Under the pieces are notes generated by a model, which was not told the DNA's origin, made no database searches, and worked only from the letters and a program-made list of their open reading frames with translations. Of a stretch of DNA of 34,173 nucleotides, positions 8,082 through 13,647 are shown one piece after another. Each line of letters opens with the position of its first letter. The first letter of the stretch is position 1. Position numbers and translations under genes: made by a program. Origin of the DNA: a virus. The stretch is taken from the UHGV virus genome UHGV-0113711. One strand, given 5' to 3'.

Positions 8082-8102
8082 GGGAGTTTGCACTCCCTTT
8101 TT
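8082..8102. terminator. Rho-independent terminator hairpin
   Basis: gggagt-ttgc-actccc (8082..8097) followed by ttttt, directly after the Nu1-like stop. An A-run upstream makes it potentially bidirectional, also serving the convergent minus-strand genes. Confidence 0.65.
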
Positions 8103-8187
8103 AATTTCAAACAGTTACCATGTTTATGTATTTCATTTTTAAAATCGAATGAAGGAATTTAAAGCGATGGTGGGACCAAAATGTTTT

Positions 8188-8400
8188 TCATCGTGTTGCT
8201 CCTTTAAAGATTTGTTTCTGACGATTAATGAACATTCTTTCCTGCTTGAAATAGCCTGCTTCAATTTCGACTGACTCTGTTAGATGTTGCTTAGGGTATT
8301 TTTCGCGACTAGCGCAATGTACATTTTTTCGTTGTAACATAAAACTAATTTTCACATAATCGCGCTTGCAAATTACACACTTGTAATCATGGCCTGTCAT
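8188..8400 (-). CDS. Small Cys/His-containing protein (70 aa), downstream of the retron reverse transcriptase
   Basis: ORF with a good ribosome-binding site (AAAGGAG, ~5 nt spacing). Contains CVIC and HC pairs suggestive of a small zinc-binding module. Same strand as the reverse transcriptase, 188 bp downstream. Confidence 0.55.
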   Translation of the reverse strand: MTGHDYKCVICKRDYVKISFMLQRKNVHCASREKYPKQHLTESVEIEAGYFKQERMFINRQKQIFKGATR

Positions 8401-8587
8401 ATATACTCCTTTGTAAAACTATATTTATAGCCTCCATAACATTACAAAAGAATGATATTTTTAATTTGAGGTGTCGTCCAAATATGATTATATTCCAAAG
8501 TGACATTAATGAATATTGTCCCGACTACGGAATAGGGATTAAAATAAACCGTAACCGGGAAATATATTTATTATCCATTTTTAACCA

Positions 8588-10357
8588 TCATGGATAGTAC
8601 AAATTTTTAAAGTGATTATTAATATCAACCATAGCATCAAGAATTGGTTTGAACAATGAAAAATCTATAGTCTGTCTATTTTCTCTGATAATATTGTTGG
8701 CAAACCTGTCTTTTCCAAAAGTAGTAGTGCTATCATGATTATTACTTTTATCAAAGGATTTACCGTTAATTGTCTTTGTCAGAACTTCATCTTTGAAAAA
8801 GTCTTCCATGCACGATTGTTTATCACCAGCCAATAGTGGAGTTAACAATACGTAGAGGTTATTCTCTAAATGTAAAAATTTATGTTTTCTTACGTCCTCT
8901 GATTTTCTAGGCAGGTGAGAATATTCTTTGATTATATTATTAATAAAATCAGATGGCCCAGTGTCATTATCCAAAACAATTATTACTGGATTTTTAGGCG
9001 GTTGTCTTTCAAATTTCTTGCATTGTTCTCTATGCCTTCTAAAGAATCTTACATAGTCAGCAGCCCCACCGTAGAGGTCTAAAAAATATTCCTTTTTTGC
9101 GTTTGTTTTGAATAACGTAATATTTAAAATTCTATTCTTTGTTCTATCGTCAACTCTAACCAGAGCAGGATAACTTAAATACAAAGAATCAATTGCACAT
9201 TTCAAATAAATTGGATCTGTTTTACCTTCTGTCAAAACTGTAGGCTTTATATTCCCATAAAAATACTTATAATGAAGAAAGTTACTGAATGCTGTCTCTC
9301 TTGAATTCAATTTGAGAGTAAAATTAATTCCAGTTTTCTTTAGCACATATTTTTCTGGGAGTGTATGTTTTTTAGCGTTAATGTTATTATACTTATCAAG
9401 CATATCAATATAAACGAAGCGGCCTTCAAGTTCATTTAGAGTACCTTTTCGCGGTTTTCCACTAATATCCAAAAGGGTAAAATCCCCTTCTTTATAAAGT
9501 GCATGCGCCATAGCTCTGGTTTTTTTAATATAATCTTTATTGACATTTATTTTTTTGTTTACGGTTAAACCTGTTACTTCCTGCCTTGATGTATGCCGCA
9601 ATATTCTGGTCTTATTATTATTAATTTTAAATCCAGCTTTTTCAATTTCATTAACTAACAATGGTCCTAACTCGTTAGAATTCTCATTTATAACAATTGA
9701 GTCAGGAAACTGATTTTTGTTAGTTGAGAATGTTATATCATCTGCATATCGACTATAACTGCATCCATTAGAAAGTGCCAACTTTGACAATCTAATATCT
9801 AAAATATTACATATAAGATTGCTTATTACAGGAGAGCAAGGACTTCCTTGCGGAAGTTTTCCATCATAGCAAGCTATCTGCGCAATTATAGTTGCTATTG
9901 ATGGGTGCAAATTAAAATATTGATTCGCGATAAAATAACCACGGACCCTACCGAAATTAAATGTAGGGAAAAAATCCTCAAGATCAATATTTAAAACATT
10001 GGTTTTATTTCTATGTCTTTCTGCATTTGTTATTATTGTTTTATTTTTCTCAAATCCATGAGATAAGCTAGGGGTGATATTATTTGTTTTCCATATTTCG
10101 CTCTGACAAACATACAATAAATCTGATAAACGCCTTTGTATGTCTTTTAGTTTTTCAGTAGGCGCAAATATCTCTCTGTCACCTCCAGACTTCTTTTTTA
10201 TAATAAATCTTTCATATTGATGCTCAGGTCGTATTCTGTACAGGACATTAGTAAGAAAAGAAACTTTAATTTGAAGTAAGCGTGCAAACTCAAATTTGGT
10301 CTTGCATGACTTGAGTCTTTCTAAGTAGGAGGGAGTGAACATAATAGTAAATTCCAT
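8588..10357 (-). CDS. Retron-type reverse transcriptase with C-terminal Toprim domain (Ec67-family architecture)
   Basis: Reverse-transcriptase motifs are KKSGGDREIFAPT (box 1/2), LNIDLEDFFPTFNF (box A), LPQGSPCSPVISNLICNILD (box B'), YSRYADDITFST (box C, YADD) and SRQEVTGLTVN. The C-terminal ~250 aa carry Toprim signatures TVLTEGKTDPIYLK (conserved Glu) and PVIIVLDNDTGPSD (DxD). Size (584-589 aa) and block order match my recollection of the Ec67 reverse transcriptase (586 aa). The true start may be the Met at 10342. Confidence 0.9.
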   Translation of the reverse strand: MEFTIMFTPSYLERLKSCKTKFEFARLLQIKVSFLTNVLYRIRPEHQYERFIIKKKSGGDREIFAPTEKLKDIQRRLSDLLYVCQSEIWKTNNITPSLSHGFEKNKTIITNAERHRNKTNVLNIDLEDFFPTFNFGRVRGYFIANQYFNLHPSIATIIAQIACYDGKLPQGSPCSPVISNLICNILDIRLSKLALSNGCSYSRYADDITFSTNKNQFPDSIVINENSNELGPLLVNEIEKAGFKINNNKTRILRHTSRQEVTGLTVNKKINVNKDYIKKTRAMAHALYKEGDFTLLDISGKPRKGTLNELEGRFVYIDMLDKYNNINAKKHTLPEKYVLKKTGINFTLKLNSRETAFSNFLHYKYFYGNIKPTVLTEGKTDPIYLKCAIDSLYLSYPALVRVDDRTKNRILNITLFKTNAKKEYFLDLYGGAADYVRFFRRHREQCKKFERQPPKNPVIIVLDNDTGPSDFINNIIKEYSHLPRKSEDVRKHKFLHLENNLYVLLTPLLAGDKQSCMEDFFKDEVLTKTINGKSFDKSNNHDSTTTFGKDRFANNIIRENRQTIDFSLFKPILDAMVDINNHFKNLYYP

Positions 10358-10373
10358 TATTAATTATGTTATT

Positions 10374-10502
10374 GCACATGCAGGCACTCTTACGCATTTC
10401 AAAGTGACGCCCAAGAAGATCCGACGTCCGTCAGAGGCGAATACTGCCGACCTTTTAATCACTGATTGCGATACCACAACCAACAAATCTACCTGCATGT
10501 GC
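10374..10502 (-). ncRNA. Candidate retron msr-msd non-coding RNA bounded by a1/a2 inverted repeats (approximate)
   Basis: Perfect 11-bp inverted repeat: gcacatgcagg (10374..10384) and cctgcatgtgc (10492..10502), spanning 129 bp immediately 5' of the reverse-transcriptase start on the minus strand. This is the position and scale expected for retron a2/a1. The internal msr/msd boundary and branch G are not determined. Confidence 0.5.
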
Positions 10503-10787
10503 CTTGCTAATTTATCATAGTTAACAATCAAAACAAGCACTTTTGAAAATGGCTGTATCTTATTGATTAACTAATCATGGTCAAAGCCGAACATTCCTCG
10601 TGAAGATTGTTAGAATTTGAGATCTTTACGAGCACTTAACAGACTGTCAGATTCAGTCATGGAGCAAGTTGAATGCAATGTTATCATGTATCACTTTTTC
10701 TTTTTCGTCGTTAAGATGGTTCATAAAACTTACCATTAAGTCGATTGATAACTAGTAATTACATCTGTAGGTTCTCTTGATGATTTG

Positions 10788-12621: not shown

Positions 12622-12648
12622 AAAAAAGGGAGCACTAAGCTCCCTTTT
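12622..12648. terminator. Bidirectional Rho-independent terminator
   Basis: aaaaaa-gggagc-actaa-gctccc-tttt: a 6-bp GC-rich stem (12628..12644) flanked by an A-run and a T-run, immediately 3' of the 59-codon minus-strand gene. Confidence 0.7.
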
Positions 12649-12649
12649 G

Positions 12650-12829
12650 TCATTTCAGACCAAGCACTAATGCTTGTTCAAGTTTTTTCTCAAGCAGAGT
12701 GTTTAATCCACTTTCGAAAAATTCAATCGCTTGAACGTCTGAGTCTGTTTTTAAGCGAACAGCGGCATCGTCAACTGTTAACTCTTCGGTCTTAACATCA
12801 CCGTTTTTATAAACCACATTAGCAATCAT
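12650..12829 (-). CDS. Small acidic protein (59 aa), self-contained transcription unit
   Basis: ATG at 12829 preceded by AAAGGAGA; translation MIANVVYKNGDVKTEELTVDDAAVRLKTDSDVQAIEFFESGLNTLLEKKLEQALVLGLK. Absent from the ORF track (below its apparent length cutoff). Has its own promoter and terminator. Confidence 0.6.
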   Translation of the reverse strand: MIANVVYKNGDVKTEELTVDDAAVRLKTDSDVQAIEFFESGLNTLLEKKLEQALVLGLK

Positions 12830-12850
12830 GCTTTCTCCTTTGTTGCTAAA

Positions 12851-12879
12851 AAATAATAACCGAATGATATCACTTGTTC
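12851..12879 (-). promoter_or_regulatory. Sigma70-like promoter for the 59-codon gene (-35 TTGAAC, 17-bp spacer, -10 TATTAT)
   Basis: Minus-strand reading ttgaac-aagtgatatcattcggt-tattat, ending ~10 nt before the ribosome-binding site. Confidence 0.5.
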
Positions 12880-13067
12880 AATTTTTCTTTCAATCAAATA
12901 AGTATCCGATGAATAGTCGGCTCTCTAAACTAGCAGGTATGAAATAGTTCCTTAATTCTGAACTTCCTCACTTTGCTTCCTATTTAATATTGCAATTTTA
13001 AATCTAGTGTAATTAATTTAGCTACAAACTTGCATTTATTATACATTTAAAAAATCGCCTCCATTCG

Positions 13068-13502
13068 TTAGGCATTCTCAGTTTCACTCATTTCTCCTTT
13101 AGTGCTATTCACACAGCGAAGAAACTGATCCCTCTGATACGCGGCAGTTTTGTCTGACATCTGTTTTTTGAATAACTCAAAATCCCCCTCTGTACGTTTA
13201 AAAATAATCATGCTAATCGCAGATGGTTTTTTATTAGCCGATTTGCTAGCAAGAAGTTTTTCGATGTTATCGAATCCGAAAGCCTGATTCACGATTCGTT
13301 GTGCTTCAACAGCATCGACAACTTCAACCGTATTTTCAGCTTTAACTTCTTCAACAACTGTATATTCCTCGATGTTAGCTTTAACACGACGAACAACAGA
13401 ACGAGGAACATCGTATTTTTCAGCAAGCTTACTCTCTGACATATCAGTACCAGCGTTTAATTCAGAAGCAATTCGGTTTTCAACAGTCAGTTCAGTTTTC
13501 AT
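13068..13502 (-). CDS. Putative HTH DNA-binding protein (144 aa)
   Basis: Start moved to the internal ATG 13502 (AGGAGA 6 nt upstream); track start 13559 has no ribosome-binding site. SESKLAEKYDVPRSVVRRV looks like a helix-turn-helix. Divergent from the large terminase gene. Confidence 0.6.
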   Translation of the reverse strand: MKTELTVENRIASELNAGTDMSESKLAEKYDVPRSVVRRVKANIEEYTVVEEVKAENTVEVVDAVEAQRIVNQAFGFDNIEKLLASKSANKKPSAISMIIFKRTEGDFELFKKQMSDKTAAYQRDQFLRCVNSTKGEMSETENA

Positions 13503-13647
13503 TGTCGTTCTCCTGTGTTTTGTTGGAACAGACTTTAACAGGCGGATATCCAGGTGCAAGAACTCTTAGAAATAATTTTATGGAGGTTTTCATAAATACA
13601 GACAGAGAAATGAAATCCATTTTGGGTTCATCCACTTAGGGCTGATT

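What the first reader, a model, noticed from the sequence alone, without database searches (positions are those of the whole stretch)
8102..13647. About 5.5 kb of minus-strand cargo splits the Nu1-like small terminase gene from the GpA-type large terminase gene
In lambda-type packaging modules the small and large terminase genes are adjacent or overlapping. Here they are separated by an opposite-strand block containing the retron, a small Cys/His protein, a 246-aa coiled-coil protein, two small HTH proteins, a self-contained 59-codon gene and ~1 kb of non-coding DNA with GC-rich repeats. Either this is a moron or defence-island insertion hotspot within the packaging operon, or the 7560..8081 gene is a Nu1-like DNA-binding paralogue rather than the functional small terminase.
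Basis: inference. Interest (0 to 1): 0.6.

Follow-up and report, generated by a model that had tools for sequence, protein, structure and literature searches.

The report
Retron slot between split terminase genes
In this E. coli prophage the two DNA-packaging genes have always been about 4-6 kb apart: half of the gap is a conserved module of the phage itself and the other half is a swappable slot that holds a known anti-phage retron here and a Septu system in near-identical relatives.

Summary
A small-terminase-like gene (7560-8081, +) and a GpA-type large terminase gene (13648-15531, +) are separated by 5,566 bp of leftward genes and about 1 kb of non-coding DNA.

All 10 distinct relatives in which both terminase genes were recovered (Escherichia, Klebsiella, Pantoea, IMG/VR) show the same split, 4.2-6.4 kb wide. 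They share a backbone: an FmdB zinc-ribbon gene, a coiled-coil gene (fused to the zinc ribbon in some relatives), a small HTH gene and 1-1.6 kb of non-coding DNA. So the split is ancestral.

Only 8103-10893 is exchangeable cargo. Here it holds a complete type I-C retron (Ec67/Eco2 family RT-TOPRIM plus msr-msd). Prophages with 94-99% identical flanks carry Septu (PtuA/PtuB) between exactly the same breakpoints. Others carry three unknown genes, or nothing.

The 7560-8081 gene is most likely the real small terminase: it gives a full-length phrog_57 match, is conserved across the family, and is the only candidate. It is only weakly Nu1-like.

The backbone's function is unknown. It is the only place left in this 34-kb element for regulation or replication. 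The retron and the hotspot principle are known. The architecture and the uncharacterised phage lineage are the new part.

The parts
7560..8081 (+). Small terminase (TerS) candidate, 173 aa: N-terminal HTH, long helices, acidic C-terminal tail
   Evidence: phrog_57 'terminase small subunit' at 6.4e-21, residues 5-169 against profile 11-189/199. No Pfam hit. Phage_Nu1 is sub-threshold in 8 of 21 family members. A family profile hits the N-terminal HTH of RppC, E 0.0095. The AF2 model has pLDDT 75, and the top Foldseek hit is 6hn7_B, prob 0.97, E 0.35. A homologue was found upstream of TerL in every relative whose recovered locus extends that far.
8080..8099 (+). Intrinsic-terminator-like hairpin ending the TerS transcript; left edge of the cargo slot
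   Evidence: 8-bp stem plus T-run. Homology with the Septu-bearing relatives ends at 8102.
8103..10893 (.). Exchangeable cargo slot (defence hotspot), 2.8 kb, low GC
   Evidence: L059, L061 and L066 align at 94-95% up to 8102 and resume at exactly 10894, with PtuA/PtuB in between. GC is about 0.25-0.37 here against about 0.39-0.42 in the flanks.
8188..8400 (-). p70, a degenerate FmdB-type zinc-ribbon protein (second Cys knuckle lost; conserved C-terminal tail INRxKQxFKGATR)
   Evidence: Alignment A7 with zinc-ribbon genes of relatives, several of which match PF09723. The domain is fused to the coiled-coil protein in P0042, P0046, P0050 and L025. The window protein itself has no Pfam hit.
8588..10357 (-). 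Retron reverse transcriptase fused to a TOPRIM nuclease (type I-C, Ec67/Eco2 family); likely start at 10342 (584 aa)
   Evidence: NCBIfam NF038237 at 708.7 bits against a cut-off of 450, model positions 1-572/572. PADLOC RT-Toprim_I-C at 7e-216. PF00078 at 4e-23. YADD, EGKTD and DND motifs are visible in the sequence. 72% aa identity to the commonest E. coli Ec67-family RT.
10374..10503 (-). Candidate msr-msd non-coding RNA of the retron, closed by a1/a2 inverted repeats
   Evidence: Arms GGCACAUGCAGGU and its complement form a 13-bp closing stem. MFE is -53.4 kcal/mol, z = -3.9, and 0 of 200 shuffles fold as well. There is no Rfam hit. A promoter-like site lies upstream at 10584-10557.
10788..11528 (-). 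Backbone coiled-coil protein (246 aa); family-conserved core ends at 10894, and the last ~35 codons belong to the cargo segment
   Evidence: Homologues occur at the same position in every relative in which this part of the interval was recovered (alignment A4). The family is restricted to these prophages. No informative Pfam, PHROG or PADLOC match (only weak, sub-threshold coiled-coil-type hits). AF2 pLDDT is 57 and the fold search is uninformative.
11476..11634 (-). Backbone small HTH protein (52 aa from ATG 11634)
   Evidence: 82% identical homologue in L003 starting MAKFIPNKF. Called as 52 aa in public assemblies. Weak match to phrog_125 (DNA invertase), 0.0071.
11665..11684 (-). Conserved terminator-like hairpin directly upstream of the small HTH gene
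   Evidence: The stem changes by compensatory substitutions between relatives: GCACUC..GAGUGC versus GCGCUC..GAGCGC.
11671..12649 (.). Conserved non-coding region with GC-rich hairpins and nested inverted repeats (12283-12300 with 12014-12030; 12148-12158 with 12072-12082 and 12034-12044)
   Evidence: 70-78% identity to L003, L005, L025 and L018 with frame-breaking indels. Repeats. Minus-strand RNA fold z = -5.3 against -2.2 for the plus strand. RNAalifold finds long-range helices but little covariation. No Rfam family.
12650..12829 (-). p59, a small conserved protein of unknown function, followed by a terminator-like hairpin at 12624-12648
   Evidence: Inverted repeat I16. The exact protein is indexed in 403 blocks of public assemblies.
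13068..13502 (-). GntR-like winged-HTH protein (144 aa), divergent from terL; present in the E. coli / K. aerogenes clade only
   Evidence: PF00392 sub-threshold at 1.2e-4. PDB GntR regulator 7u5q at E 0.021. Annotated as GntR family in L3Cip3 and PSS-15. No homologue was detected in this interval in L007, L008, L012 and L020.
13648..15531 (+). GpA-type large terminase (627 aa), first gene of the head-tail operon
   Evidence: PF05876 at 1.5e-60 and PF20454 at 1.3e-45. phrog_15 at 6e-141.

Best explanation
The 5.5-kb interval is a mosaic of ancestral phage backbone and one horizontally exchanged defence cassette.

(1) Backbone. This family of 32-35 kb enterobacterial siphovirus-like prophages uses a serine integrase and is inserted here between ybiT and ldtB. 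In it, terS and terL are separate transcription units about 4-6 kb apart. Between them lies a leftward block: a 1-1.6 kb conserved non-coding region, a small HTH gene, a coiled-coil gene and an FmdB zinc-ribbon gene. In the E. coli / K. aerogenes clade there is also a GntR-like wHTH gene divergent from terL, with small or moron genes downstream of it.

Every other ORF of the element is an integrase, lysozyme, packaging, head, tail, EndoVII or defence gene. I therefore infer that this block is the phage's control region, possibly also its replication region. This step is inference and is not shown.

(2) Cargo. Positions 8103-10893 form a recombinational hotspot. Its edges are the terS terminator and the end of the conserved coiled-coil core. 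In this window it holds a complete type I-C retron with a promoter-like site upstream (msr-msd plus an RT-TOPRIM fusion). It sits between the coiled-coil gene and its zinc-ribbon partner, whose zinc knuckle has decayed.

By homology with Eco2 (PMC12916289), the RT should make msDNA that cages the TOPRIM nucleases. A nuclease of an infecting phage would degrade the msDNA, and the freed TOPRIM would cut tRNAs and shut down translation, protecting the lysogen population. This mechanism is inferred from the family and was not tested here.

(3) Small terminase. The 7560-8081 gene is the functional small terminase. It is a distant relative of Nu1/RppC-type wHTH proteins.
For: Split is ancestral:
- A TerS homologue lies 4.2-6.4 kb upstream of TerL in all 10 distinct relatives in which both genes were recovered. 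These are L003, L005, L007, L008, L012, L016, L018, L020, L023 and L025.
- The backbone genes recur in all of them, and the coiled-coil and zinc-ribbon parts are fused in P0042, P0046, P0050 and L025.
- The non-coding DNA is as conserved as the neighbouring coding DNA.

Cargo slot:
- Septu-bearing prophages share 94-99% identical flanks and break exactly at 8102 and 10894.
- PtuA matches at 3.4e-155 and PtuB at 3.8e-94.
- Other alleles hold an unknown 3-gene cassette or are empty with a fused gene.
- The cargo has low GC.

Retron identity.

TerS identity. A terminator-like site follows terS.

No other regulatory or replication genes.

Precedents from the literature:
- Defence hotspots lie next to cos and packaging genes in P2 and P4 (PMC9122126).
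Against: - The proposed role of the backbone rests on exclusion only. The coiled-coil, zinc-ribbon, p59 and small HTH proteins have no informative family, PDB or fold match.
- The GntR-like gene is missing in the Klebsiella pneumoniae-type relatives.
- No DnaA boxes were found, and no lambda-like cosN.
- Covariation support for an RNA in the non-coding region is weak.
- TerS has no above-threshold Pfam match, and its best structural neighbour is a satellite packaging-redirection protein, not a terminase.
- No member of the family has been shown to form virions. In both complete RefSeq genomes that carry the retron allele, terL is interrupted by an IS.
- msDNA production and defence were not tested.
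Confidence: 0.72

Rival explanations
1. The whole 5.5 kb is accessory cargo (a moron or defence island) that was inserted into a formerly adjacent Nu1-A type terminase pair.
For: The interval is on the opposite strand, contains a retron, and has somewhat lower GC than the flanks. Several sub-regions do vary between relatives: homing endonucleases, and YadA-like or LprI-like genes.
Against: No relative has adjacent terS and terL. The coiled-coil, zinc-ribbon and HTH genes and a long non-coding region are present in all relatives across at least three genera. Only 8103-10893 is replaced between near-identical prophages.
Confidence: 0.04
2. The 7560-8081 protein is not the working small terminase. 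It would be a Nu1/Rpp-like DNA-binding paralogue, for example a packaging-redirection or regulatory protein, and the real small subunit lies elsewhere or is dispensable.
For: There is no above-threshold Pfam terminase hit. The only PDB similarity is to the N-terminal HTH of RppC. The gene has a terminator-like site of its own and is unlinked from terL. The TerS allele diverges (76% aa) between prophages with identical TerL.
Against: The phrog_57 terminase small subunit match is full-length, 6.4e-21. The protein has the typical TerS layout of HTH, long helices and an acidic tail. A homologue lies in the same place, upstream of the interval, in every relative whose recovered locus reaches that far. 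Every other ORF of the element is accounted for, and none resembles a TerS.
Confidence: 0.1
3. The conserved non-coding DNA between terS and terL is the packaging site (cos, with TerS-binding repeats). terS and terL would then lie at opposite ends of the virion chromosome, and the hotspot would be 'cos-adjacent' as in P2 and P4. This is compatible with the cargo and backbone mosaic, and concerns only the role of 11671-12649.
For: GC-rich nested inverted repeats sit in an AT-rich genome. K. pneumoniae-type relatives have a different sequence but also have repeat arrays. Homing endonucleases repeatedly target this region. In P2 and P4 the defence hotspots, and retrons Ec67 and Ec86, lie next to cos (PMC9122126, PMC6868368).
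Against: There is no match to lambda cosN beyond chance. A 190-bp conserved region upstream of terS (7370-7559) is an equally good candidate. No virion-end data exist. About 1 kb is much larger than known cos sites.
Confidence: 0.2
4. The element is a defective or helper-dependent, GTA-like particle gene cluster. The interval genes would be remnants without function.
For: No replication or repressor genes are recognisable. The retron-bearing copies in both complete RefSeq genomes carry an IS in terL. The tail module is split and partly inverted.
Against: Intact ORFs and the same gene order are kept across Escherichia, Klebsiella and Pantoea at 50-85% protein identity, which implies purifying selection. 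The element has its own serine integrase and is sporadic, found in 7 of 5,426 complete E. coli genomes. It therefore behaves as a mobile element. Many assemblies carry an intact terL.
Confidence: 0.1

Closest known systems
Retron-Eco2 (Ec67), type I-C retron: msr-msd plus an RT-TOPRIM fusion
   Same: Same single-protein architecture and family: NF038237 at 708.7 bits and PADLOC RT-Toprim_I-C. An upstream ncRNA has a1/a2 arms. The element is carried by a prophage next to packaging genes, as described for Ec67 and Ec86 (PMC6868368).
   Different: A different allele, 72% aa identical to the commonest E. coli Ec67-family RT. The host is an unrelated lambda-like (GpA terminase) siphovirus-type prophage, not a P2/186-type prophage. 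There is no Rfam match for the ncRNA. msDNA and defence are untested.
Cos-adjacent defence hotspots of P2-like phages and P4-like satellites (Rousset et al. 2022, PMC9122126)
   Same: Conserved flanks with alternative defence systems (retron, Septu, unknown cassettes, empty) at one position beside packaging genes.
   Different: A different phage lineage. The slot lies between terS and terL and inside a conserved leftward operon, splitting a coiled-coil gene from its zinc-ribbon partner. Proximity to cos is not established here.
Lambda Nu1-A (cos-type) packaging module
   Same: The large subunit is of GpA type, with both domains. The small subunit has an N-terminal HTH with faint Nu1 and RppC similarity. 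Head and tail genes follow terL.
   Different: The genes are neither adjacent nor co-transcribed. They are 4-6 kb apart with an opposite-strand module in between, and terS has a terminator-like site of its own. The small subunit does not reach the Pfam Phage_Nu1 threshold.
RppC, the packaging-redirection protein of E. coli PICIs (PDB 6hlk/6hn7)
   Same: Best sequence-profile and fold match for the N-terminal about 40-70 residues.
   Different: The similarity is limited to the HTH. The window protein matches a terminase small subunit PHROG over its full length and resides in a complete prophage, not in a PICI.

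Membership tests
Retron type I-C (Ec67/Eco2 family) | Retron-clade reverse transcriptase with a YADD catalytic motif | tested here: met
   PF00078 at 4e-23. NF038237 at 708.7 bits against a cut-off of 450. YADD is visible in the translation.
Retron type I-C (Ec67/Eco2 family) | C-terminal TOPRIM nuclease fused to the RT in one polypeptide | tested here: met
   PADLOC RT-Toprim_I-C at 7e-216, covering residues 10-585. The NCBIfam model is matched 1-572/572. EGKTD and DND motifs are present.
Retron type I-C (Ec67/Eco2 family) | Adjacent upstream msr-msd ncRNA closed by a1/a2 inverted repeats | tested here: met
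   A 13-bp a1/a2 stem lies directly upstream of the RT, z = -3.9. The Rfam scan gives no hit, so this rests on structure, not on homology.
Retron type I-C (Ec67/Eco2 family) | msDNA synthesis and phage-triggered tRNA cleavage | not testable with these tools
   The mechanism is taken from PMC12916289. It needs msDNA gels and infection assays.
Phage_Nu1 small terminase (PF07471) | Match to the family profile above the curated threshold | tested here: not met
   No Pfam hit for the window protein, even at E up to 10. Phage_Nu1 is the most frequent weak hit among relatives (8 of 21, best 8.7e-4), which is still sub-threshold.
Phage_Nu1 small terminase (PF07471) | Gene adjacent to or overlapping the gpA-type large subunit gene | tested here: not met
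   5,566 bp apart here, and 4.2-6.4 kb apart in every relative where both genes were recovered.
Terminase small subunit in general (PHROG 57) | Full-length profile match, and an HTH plus oligomerisation-helix architecture | tested here: met
   phrog_57 at 6.4e-21 over residues 5-169. The AF2 model shows an HTH followed by long helices, pLDDT 75.
GpA-type large terminase | GpA ATPase and GpA nuclease domains | tested here: met
   PF05876 at 205 bits and PF20454 at 156 bits.
Prophage defence hotspot | Conserved flanks with alternative, unrelated cargo that includes known defence systems | tested here: met
   Retron versus Septu between breakpoints 8102 and 10894 in 94-99% identical prophages. 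Unknown-cassette and empty alleles also exist.
Prophage defence hotspot | Cargo confers phage resistance | not testable with these tools
   Needs cloning and plaque assays.
FmdB/Zn_ribbon_8 (PF09723) | Two CxxC knuckles | tested here: not met
   p70 keeps CxxC number 1, but the second knuckle is HCxxxxK and there is no Pfam hit. p70 is homologous to PF09723-positive genes of relatives through its conserved C-terminal tail.

The most novel reading that the evidence does not exclude
The terS-terL interval may be the control and replication centre of an uncharacterised, compact (32-35 kb) enterobacterial siphovirus lineage that has no recognisable replication or repressor genes. It would consist of a leftward HTH, coiled-coil and zinc-ribbon operon preceded by a conserved, strongly folding 1-1.6 kb non-coding leader. 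That leader could be a long regulatory or primer RNA, an origin, or cos. Defence cassettes are exchanged inside this operon, between the coiled-coil gene and its zinc-ribbon partner.
Probability: 0.3. Interest if true: 0.65.

Novelty: new variant of a known kind. Interest (0 to 1): 0.45.

Why it matters
Three things follow from this locus.

- **A new phage context for defence hotspots.** It adds a prophage lineage, and an unusual position between the two terminase genes, to the list of phage-borne defence hotspots. The slot has clean, mapped breakpoints. One allele is a 3-gene cassette with no known domains, so the slot could be mined for new defence systems.

- **Adjacency is not obligatory.** In a GpA-type packaging system, terS-terL adjacency can be absent: a whole family keeps the two genes 4-6 kb apart in separate transcription units. 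Annotation pipelines and prophage-boundary tools that rely on adjacency would mislabel this small subunit, which is currently 'hypothetical protein' everywhere.

- **A pointer to an uncharacterised module.** The conserved backbone and the 1-kb non-coding region mark where the unknown regulation or replication machinery of this phage family should be sought.

Tried and rejected
- **Phage databases.** Megablast of 5000-17000 against 50,697 phage genomes found nothing. tblastn of TerS found nothing. The best TerL relative is only 52% identical, in a record that looks chimeric.
- **GTDB genome scans.** The scan with TerL peptides found no relative. The second scan, with a 22-nt motif from the non-coding DNA, returned only Clostridium hits, which I take as chance.
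- **Rfam.** Nothing at gathering threshold or at E up to 5 for the interval. There was no msr, RNAI, intron or riboswitch hit. The TarB hit, 29.9 bits against an 80-bit threshold, is just the terminator hairpin.
- **Coiled-coil protein.** The family profile search stayed within these prophages. The AF2 model had pLDDT 57, and Foldseek against the PDB gave only noise.
- **Other small proteins.** PDB sequence searches with the GntR-like and small HTH proteins gave only weak generic HTH matches.
- **Origin signatures.** No DnaA-box enrichment was found. GATC is enriched 2-4 fold in the E. coli-type non-coding DNA but not in the Klebsiella type. This is inconclusive.
- **Lambda cosN.** A search allowing up to 3 mismatches found nothing meaningful in the prophage.
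- **RNA structure.** RNAalifold on six relatives found long-range helices made of inverted repeats. The covariation term was unfavourable, so RNA structure is not demonstrated.
- **Inversion mechanism.** No inverted repeats were found flanking the inverted hub-Dit-lysozyme block.
- **Literature.** A search for MS 115-1 together with retron returned nothing.
- **Rejected idea.** I considered that the non-coding DNA might hold the retron ncRNA. The msr-msd lies directly upstream of the RT instead.

Full report
**What is in the window**

The window is a 34-kb prophage of Escherichia coli. It is 100% identical over 7000-16000 to strain MS 115-1, apart from an IS3 that interrupts terL in that strain. 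It lies between ybiT and ldtB.

It starts with a large serine recombinase (1515-3020) and ends with a tape-measure gene (31774-34173).

The ORFs named in the finding are all present.
- The TerS-like gene is 7560-8081 (+).
- TerL is 13648-15531 (+), with both GpA domains.
- The interval between them is 5,566 bp.

The interval holds, on the minus strand:
- p70 (8188-8400)
- an RT-TOPRIM gene (8588-10357)
- a 246-aa coiled-coil gene (10788-11528)
- a small HTH gene (11476-11634)
- a 59-codon gene (12650-12829)
- a GntR-like wHTH gene (13068-13502)

It also holds about 1 kb of non-coding DNA (11671-12649) with GC-rich hairpins and repeats.

**The retron**

The RT is a textbook type I-C retron enzyme of the Ec67/Eco2 family.
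- NCBIfam NF038237 scores 708.7 bits against a cut-off of 450 and is matched end to end.
- PADLOC RT-Toprim_I-C matches at 7e-216.
- The YADD and TOPRIM motifs are intact.

Directly upstream, 10374-10503 (minus strand) folds into an RNA closed by a 13-bp a1/a2 stem, with z = -3.9. A promoter-like site lies at 10584-10557. Rfam does not recognise the RNA.

The protein is 72% identical to the commonest E. coli Ec67-family RT. In the one strain I examined, that RT sits in a chromosomal island next to dhaR.

The mechanism published for Eco2 has three steps: msDNA cages the TOPRIM nucleases, a phage nuclease degrades the msDNA, and the freed TOPRIM cuts tRNAs (PMC12916289). It is the best guess for this homologue but was not tested here.

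**Is the split caused by cargo?**

It is not. I fetched relatives through TerL and TerS from IMG/VR, RefSeq E. coli genomes and public assemblies.

In all 10 distinct relatives for which both genes were recovered, the TerS homologue lies 4.2-6.4 kb upstream of TerL. These relatives are:
- E. coli: L003, L005, L016 and L025
- Klebsiella aerogenes: L018
- K. pneumoniae: L020
- Pantoea: L023
- IMG/VR: L007, L008 and L012

All of them share the same backbone on the opposite strand:
- an FmdB-type zinc-ribbon gene
- a 200-315-aa protein with a coiled coil
- a 50-64-aa HTH protein
- 1-1.6 kb without ORFs

In several relatives the coiled-coil protein and the zinc ribbon are one polypeptide: P0042, P0046, P0050 and the 307-aa gene of L025.

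The E. coli / K. aerogenes clade adds a GntR-like gene divergent from terL. Variable small or surface-protein genes lie downstream of it: p59, a YadA-anchor protein, an LprI-like protein.

Many relatives also carry a homing endonuclease (GIY-YIG/NUMOD3 or HNH_3) on the plus strand just before terL. The split is therefore an ancestral feature of the lineage.

**Where the real cargo is**

The exact p59 protein is indexed in 403 blocks of public assemblies. Among prophages that share it and an identical TerL, some carry the retron and others carry Septu.

Whole-locus alignment shows the following.
- L059, L061 and L066 are 94-95% identical to the window up to position 8102.
- Homology then stops.
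- It resumes at exactly 10894. From there L059 runs at 89% over the whole right flank (95% over its first 5 kb). L061 and L066 run at 78% through the coiled-coil gene, then 90% beyond 11722 (99% over the first 4 kb).
- In between, these loci encode PtuA (3.4e-155) and PtuB (3.8e-94).

Other alleles of the slot hold three plus-strand ORFs with no known domain (L003, L005, L015). Others hold nothing, with the coiled-coil and zinc-ribbon parts fused (L025).

The slot is bounded on the left by the terS terminator (8080-8099). On the right it is bounded by the end of the conserved coiled-coil core. The last ~35 codons of the 246-aa gene belong to the cargo segment.

Its GC content (0.25-0.37) is lower than that of the flanks.

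In the three alleles with cargo, the zinc knuckles of the downstream zinc-ribbon gene are degenerate, while its C-terminal tail stays conserved. This rests on a small sample.

This is a defence hotspot of the kind described for P2 and P4 next to cos (PMC9122126). [quoted passage not shown]

**Is 7560-8081 the small terminase?**

Evidence in favour:
- It matches PHROG 57 (terminase small subunit) over its whole length, 6.4e-21.
- A family-based AF2 model (pLDDT 75) shows an N-terminal HTH followed by long helices and a disordered acidic tail.
- The family is conserved at the same position in all relatives. The N-terminal 60 residues are nearly invariant.
- Every other ORF of the element has been assigned to a non-TerS role.

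Evidence that tempers the label:
- The label 'Nu1-like' is weak. There is no Pfam hit for this protein, and Phage_Nu1 is sub-threshold in 8 of 21 relatives.
- hhalign against lambda Nu1 aligns only 29 residues.
- The best PDB neighbour is the HTH of RppC, the PICI protein that binds helper TerS.

I rate the paralogue hypothesis at about 0.1.

**What the backbone does**

This is the open part. Outside the interval the element encodes only:
- the integrase
- a 245-aa unknown protein
- tail hub and distal tail proteins
- lysozyme
- a YuaX-like protein plus a TIR protein (PDC-S35)
- TerS, TerL, connector, portal and a protease-capsid fusion
- tail fibres, tail tube, chaperones and tape measure
- an endonuclease VII

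There is no recognisable repressor, antirepressor, replication initiator, helicase loader or primase. By exclusion, the interval is where control of the phage, and possibly its replication, must be encoded. The alternative is that the element is not autonomous.

Features of the non-coding region:
- It is conserved at 70-78% among E. coli-type relatives, with frame-breaking indels.
- It contains nested inverted repeats and several GC hairpins. One orthologous hairpin changes both stem and loop between relatives: TT, UUCG, GUAA.
- It ends in a terminator-like hairpin with compensatory substitutions directly before the small HTH gene.
- As RNA it folds much better on the minus strand (z = -5.3) than on the plus strand (z = -2.2).
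- The K. pneumoniae-type region is unrelated in sequence. It has five to seven TTGAGTGTCA repeats, AT-rich repeats and similar GC hairpins.

I could not discriminate between an origin, cos, an operator array and a long leader RNA. DnaA boxes, lambda cosN, Rfam families and clear covariation were all absent.

**Verdict**

The headline claim, that cargo splits the terminase genes, is not right. The split and half of the interval are conserved phage backbone.

The retron and the hotspot principle are known. The new parts are the position of the hotspot, the obligatory terS-terL separation, and the uncharacterised backbone of a phage lineage without recognisable replication genes. These are moderately interesting and experimentally tractable.

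Noticed in passing
window 6027-7222: A second defence-like cargo lies just upstream of terS: a YuaX-like 95-99-aa protein plus a 298-aa TIR protein (PF10137 at 4.8e-38; PADLOC candidate system PDC-S35 at 1e-70). The same position holds a PIN_12/PIN_8 protein in Pantoea (L023), and three unannotated ORFs of 104, 113-120 and 754 aa in K. pneumoniae (L020/L021). The conserved terS block starts at 7370.
   Followed up: partly
window 3928-5653: The block holding tail hub, distal tail protein and lysozyme is inverted in L005, L018 and L023 relative to the window, L020 and L025. No flanking inverted repeats were found.
   Followed up: partly
window 3945-5155 and 30134-34173: The tail module is split. 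Tube, chaperones and tape measure sit at the right prophage end on the plus strand. Distal tail and hub proteins sit at the left end on the minus strand, beyond the serine integrase. The J-like tip protein (25485-29174) precedes the tube genes.
   Followed up: no
window 1-34173: No recognisable replication, repressor, holin or spanin genes occur in the whole 34-kb element. The family is nonetheless conserved at 32-35 kb across Escherichia, Klebsiella and Pantoea, and TerS homologues are also annotated in Enterobacter and Raoultella.
   Followed up: partly
L003 4730-6528 (= L005 4354-6152, L015 4499-6297): A three-gene plus-strand cassette (158, 168 and 240 aa) occupies the same slot as the retron and Septu. 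It has no Pfam or PADLOC match, so it is a candidate unknown defence system.
   Followed up: partly
L003 8388-9002; L007 9377-9883; L025 6642-7352: Homing endonucleases of three kinds (GIY-YIG/NUMOD3, HNH_3, and a third HEase inside the non-coding region of L025) are inserted in or beside the conserved non-coding DNA of relatives. None is present in the window.
   Followed up: partly
L014 15291-16411 (MS 115-1) and L065 8679-9659 (2021CK-01361): In the only two complete RefSeq genomes with the retron allele, the prophage is hit by an IS. IS3 sits inside terL. An IS5-like element removes the 5' part of terL and the GntR-like gene. The window copy and many draft assemblies have an intact terL.
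   Followed up: partly
L063 (CP128440.1), about 15270-20180: One strain has the prophage truncated at window position about 7395. terS is joined to host genes (DUF2767, ynhH, pykF, lpp), which suggests a chromosomal rearrangement with a breakpoint at the edge of the conserved terS block.
   Followed up: no
window 7560-8081 versus L059/L061: The TerS allele travels with the cargo. Retron-bearing prophages have the 173-aa allele. Septu-bearing ones have a 177-aa allele; in L022 that allele (P0003) is about 76% aa identical to the 173-aa one. TerL has the same length (627 aa) and is near-identical in all of them (99% nt in L043 and L046). The N-terminal HTH and the C-terminal SEIEL are conserved, and the middle of the protein diverges.
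   Followed up: partly
window 29501-29977: An endonuclease VII gene (PF02945 at 1.1e-10; phrog_423 at 4e-36) sits among the tail genes.
   Followed up: no
L026 3204-6719: The commonest E. coli Ec67-family retron (72% aa identical RT) lies in a chromosomal island next to dhaR, beside two genes annotated as ABC-three component system proteins and a 628-aa hypothetical gene. It is not in this prophage family.
   Followed up: no
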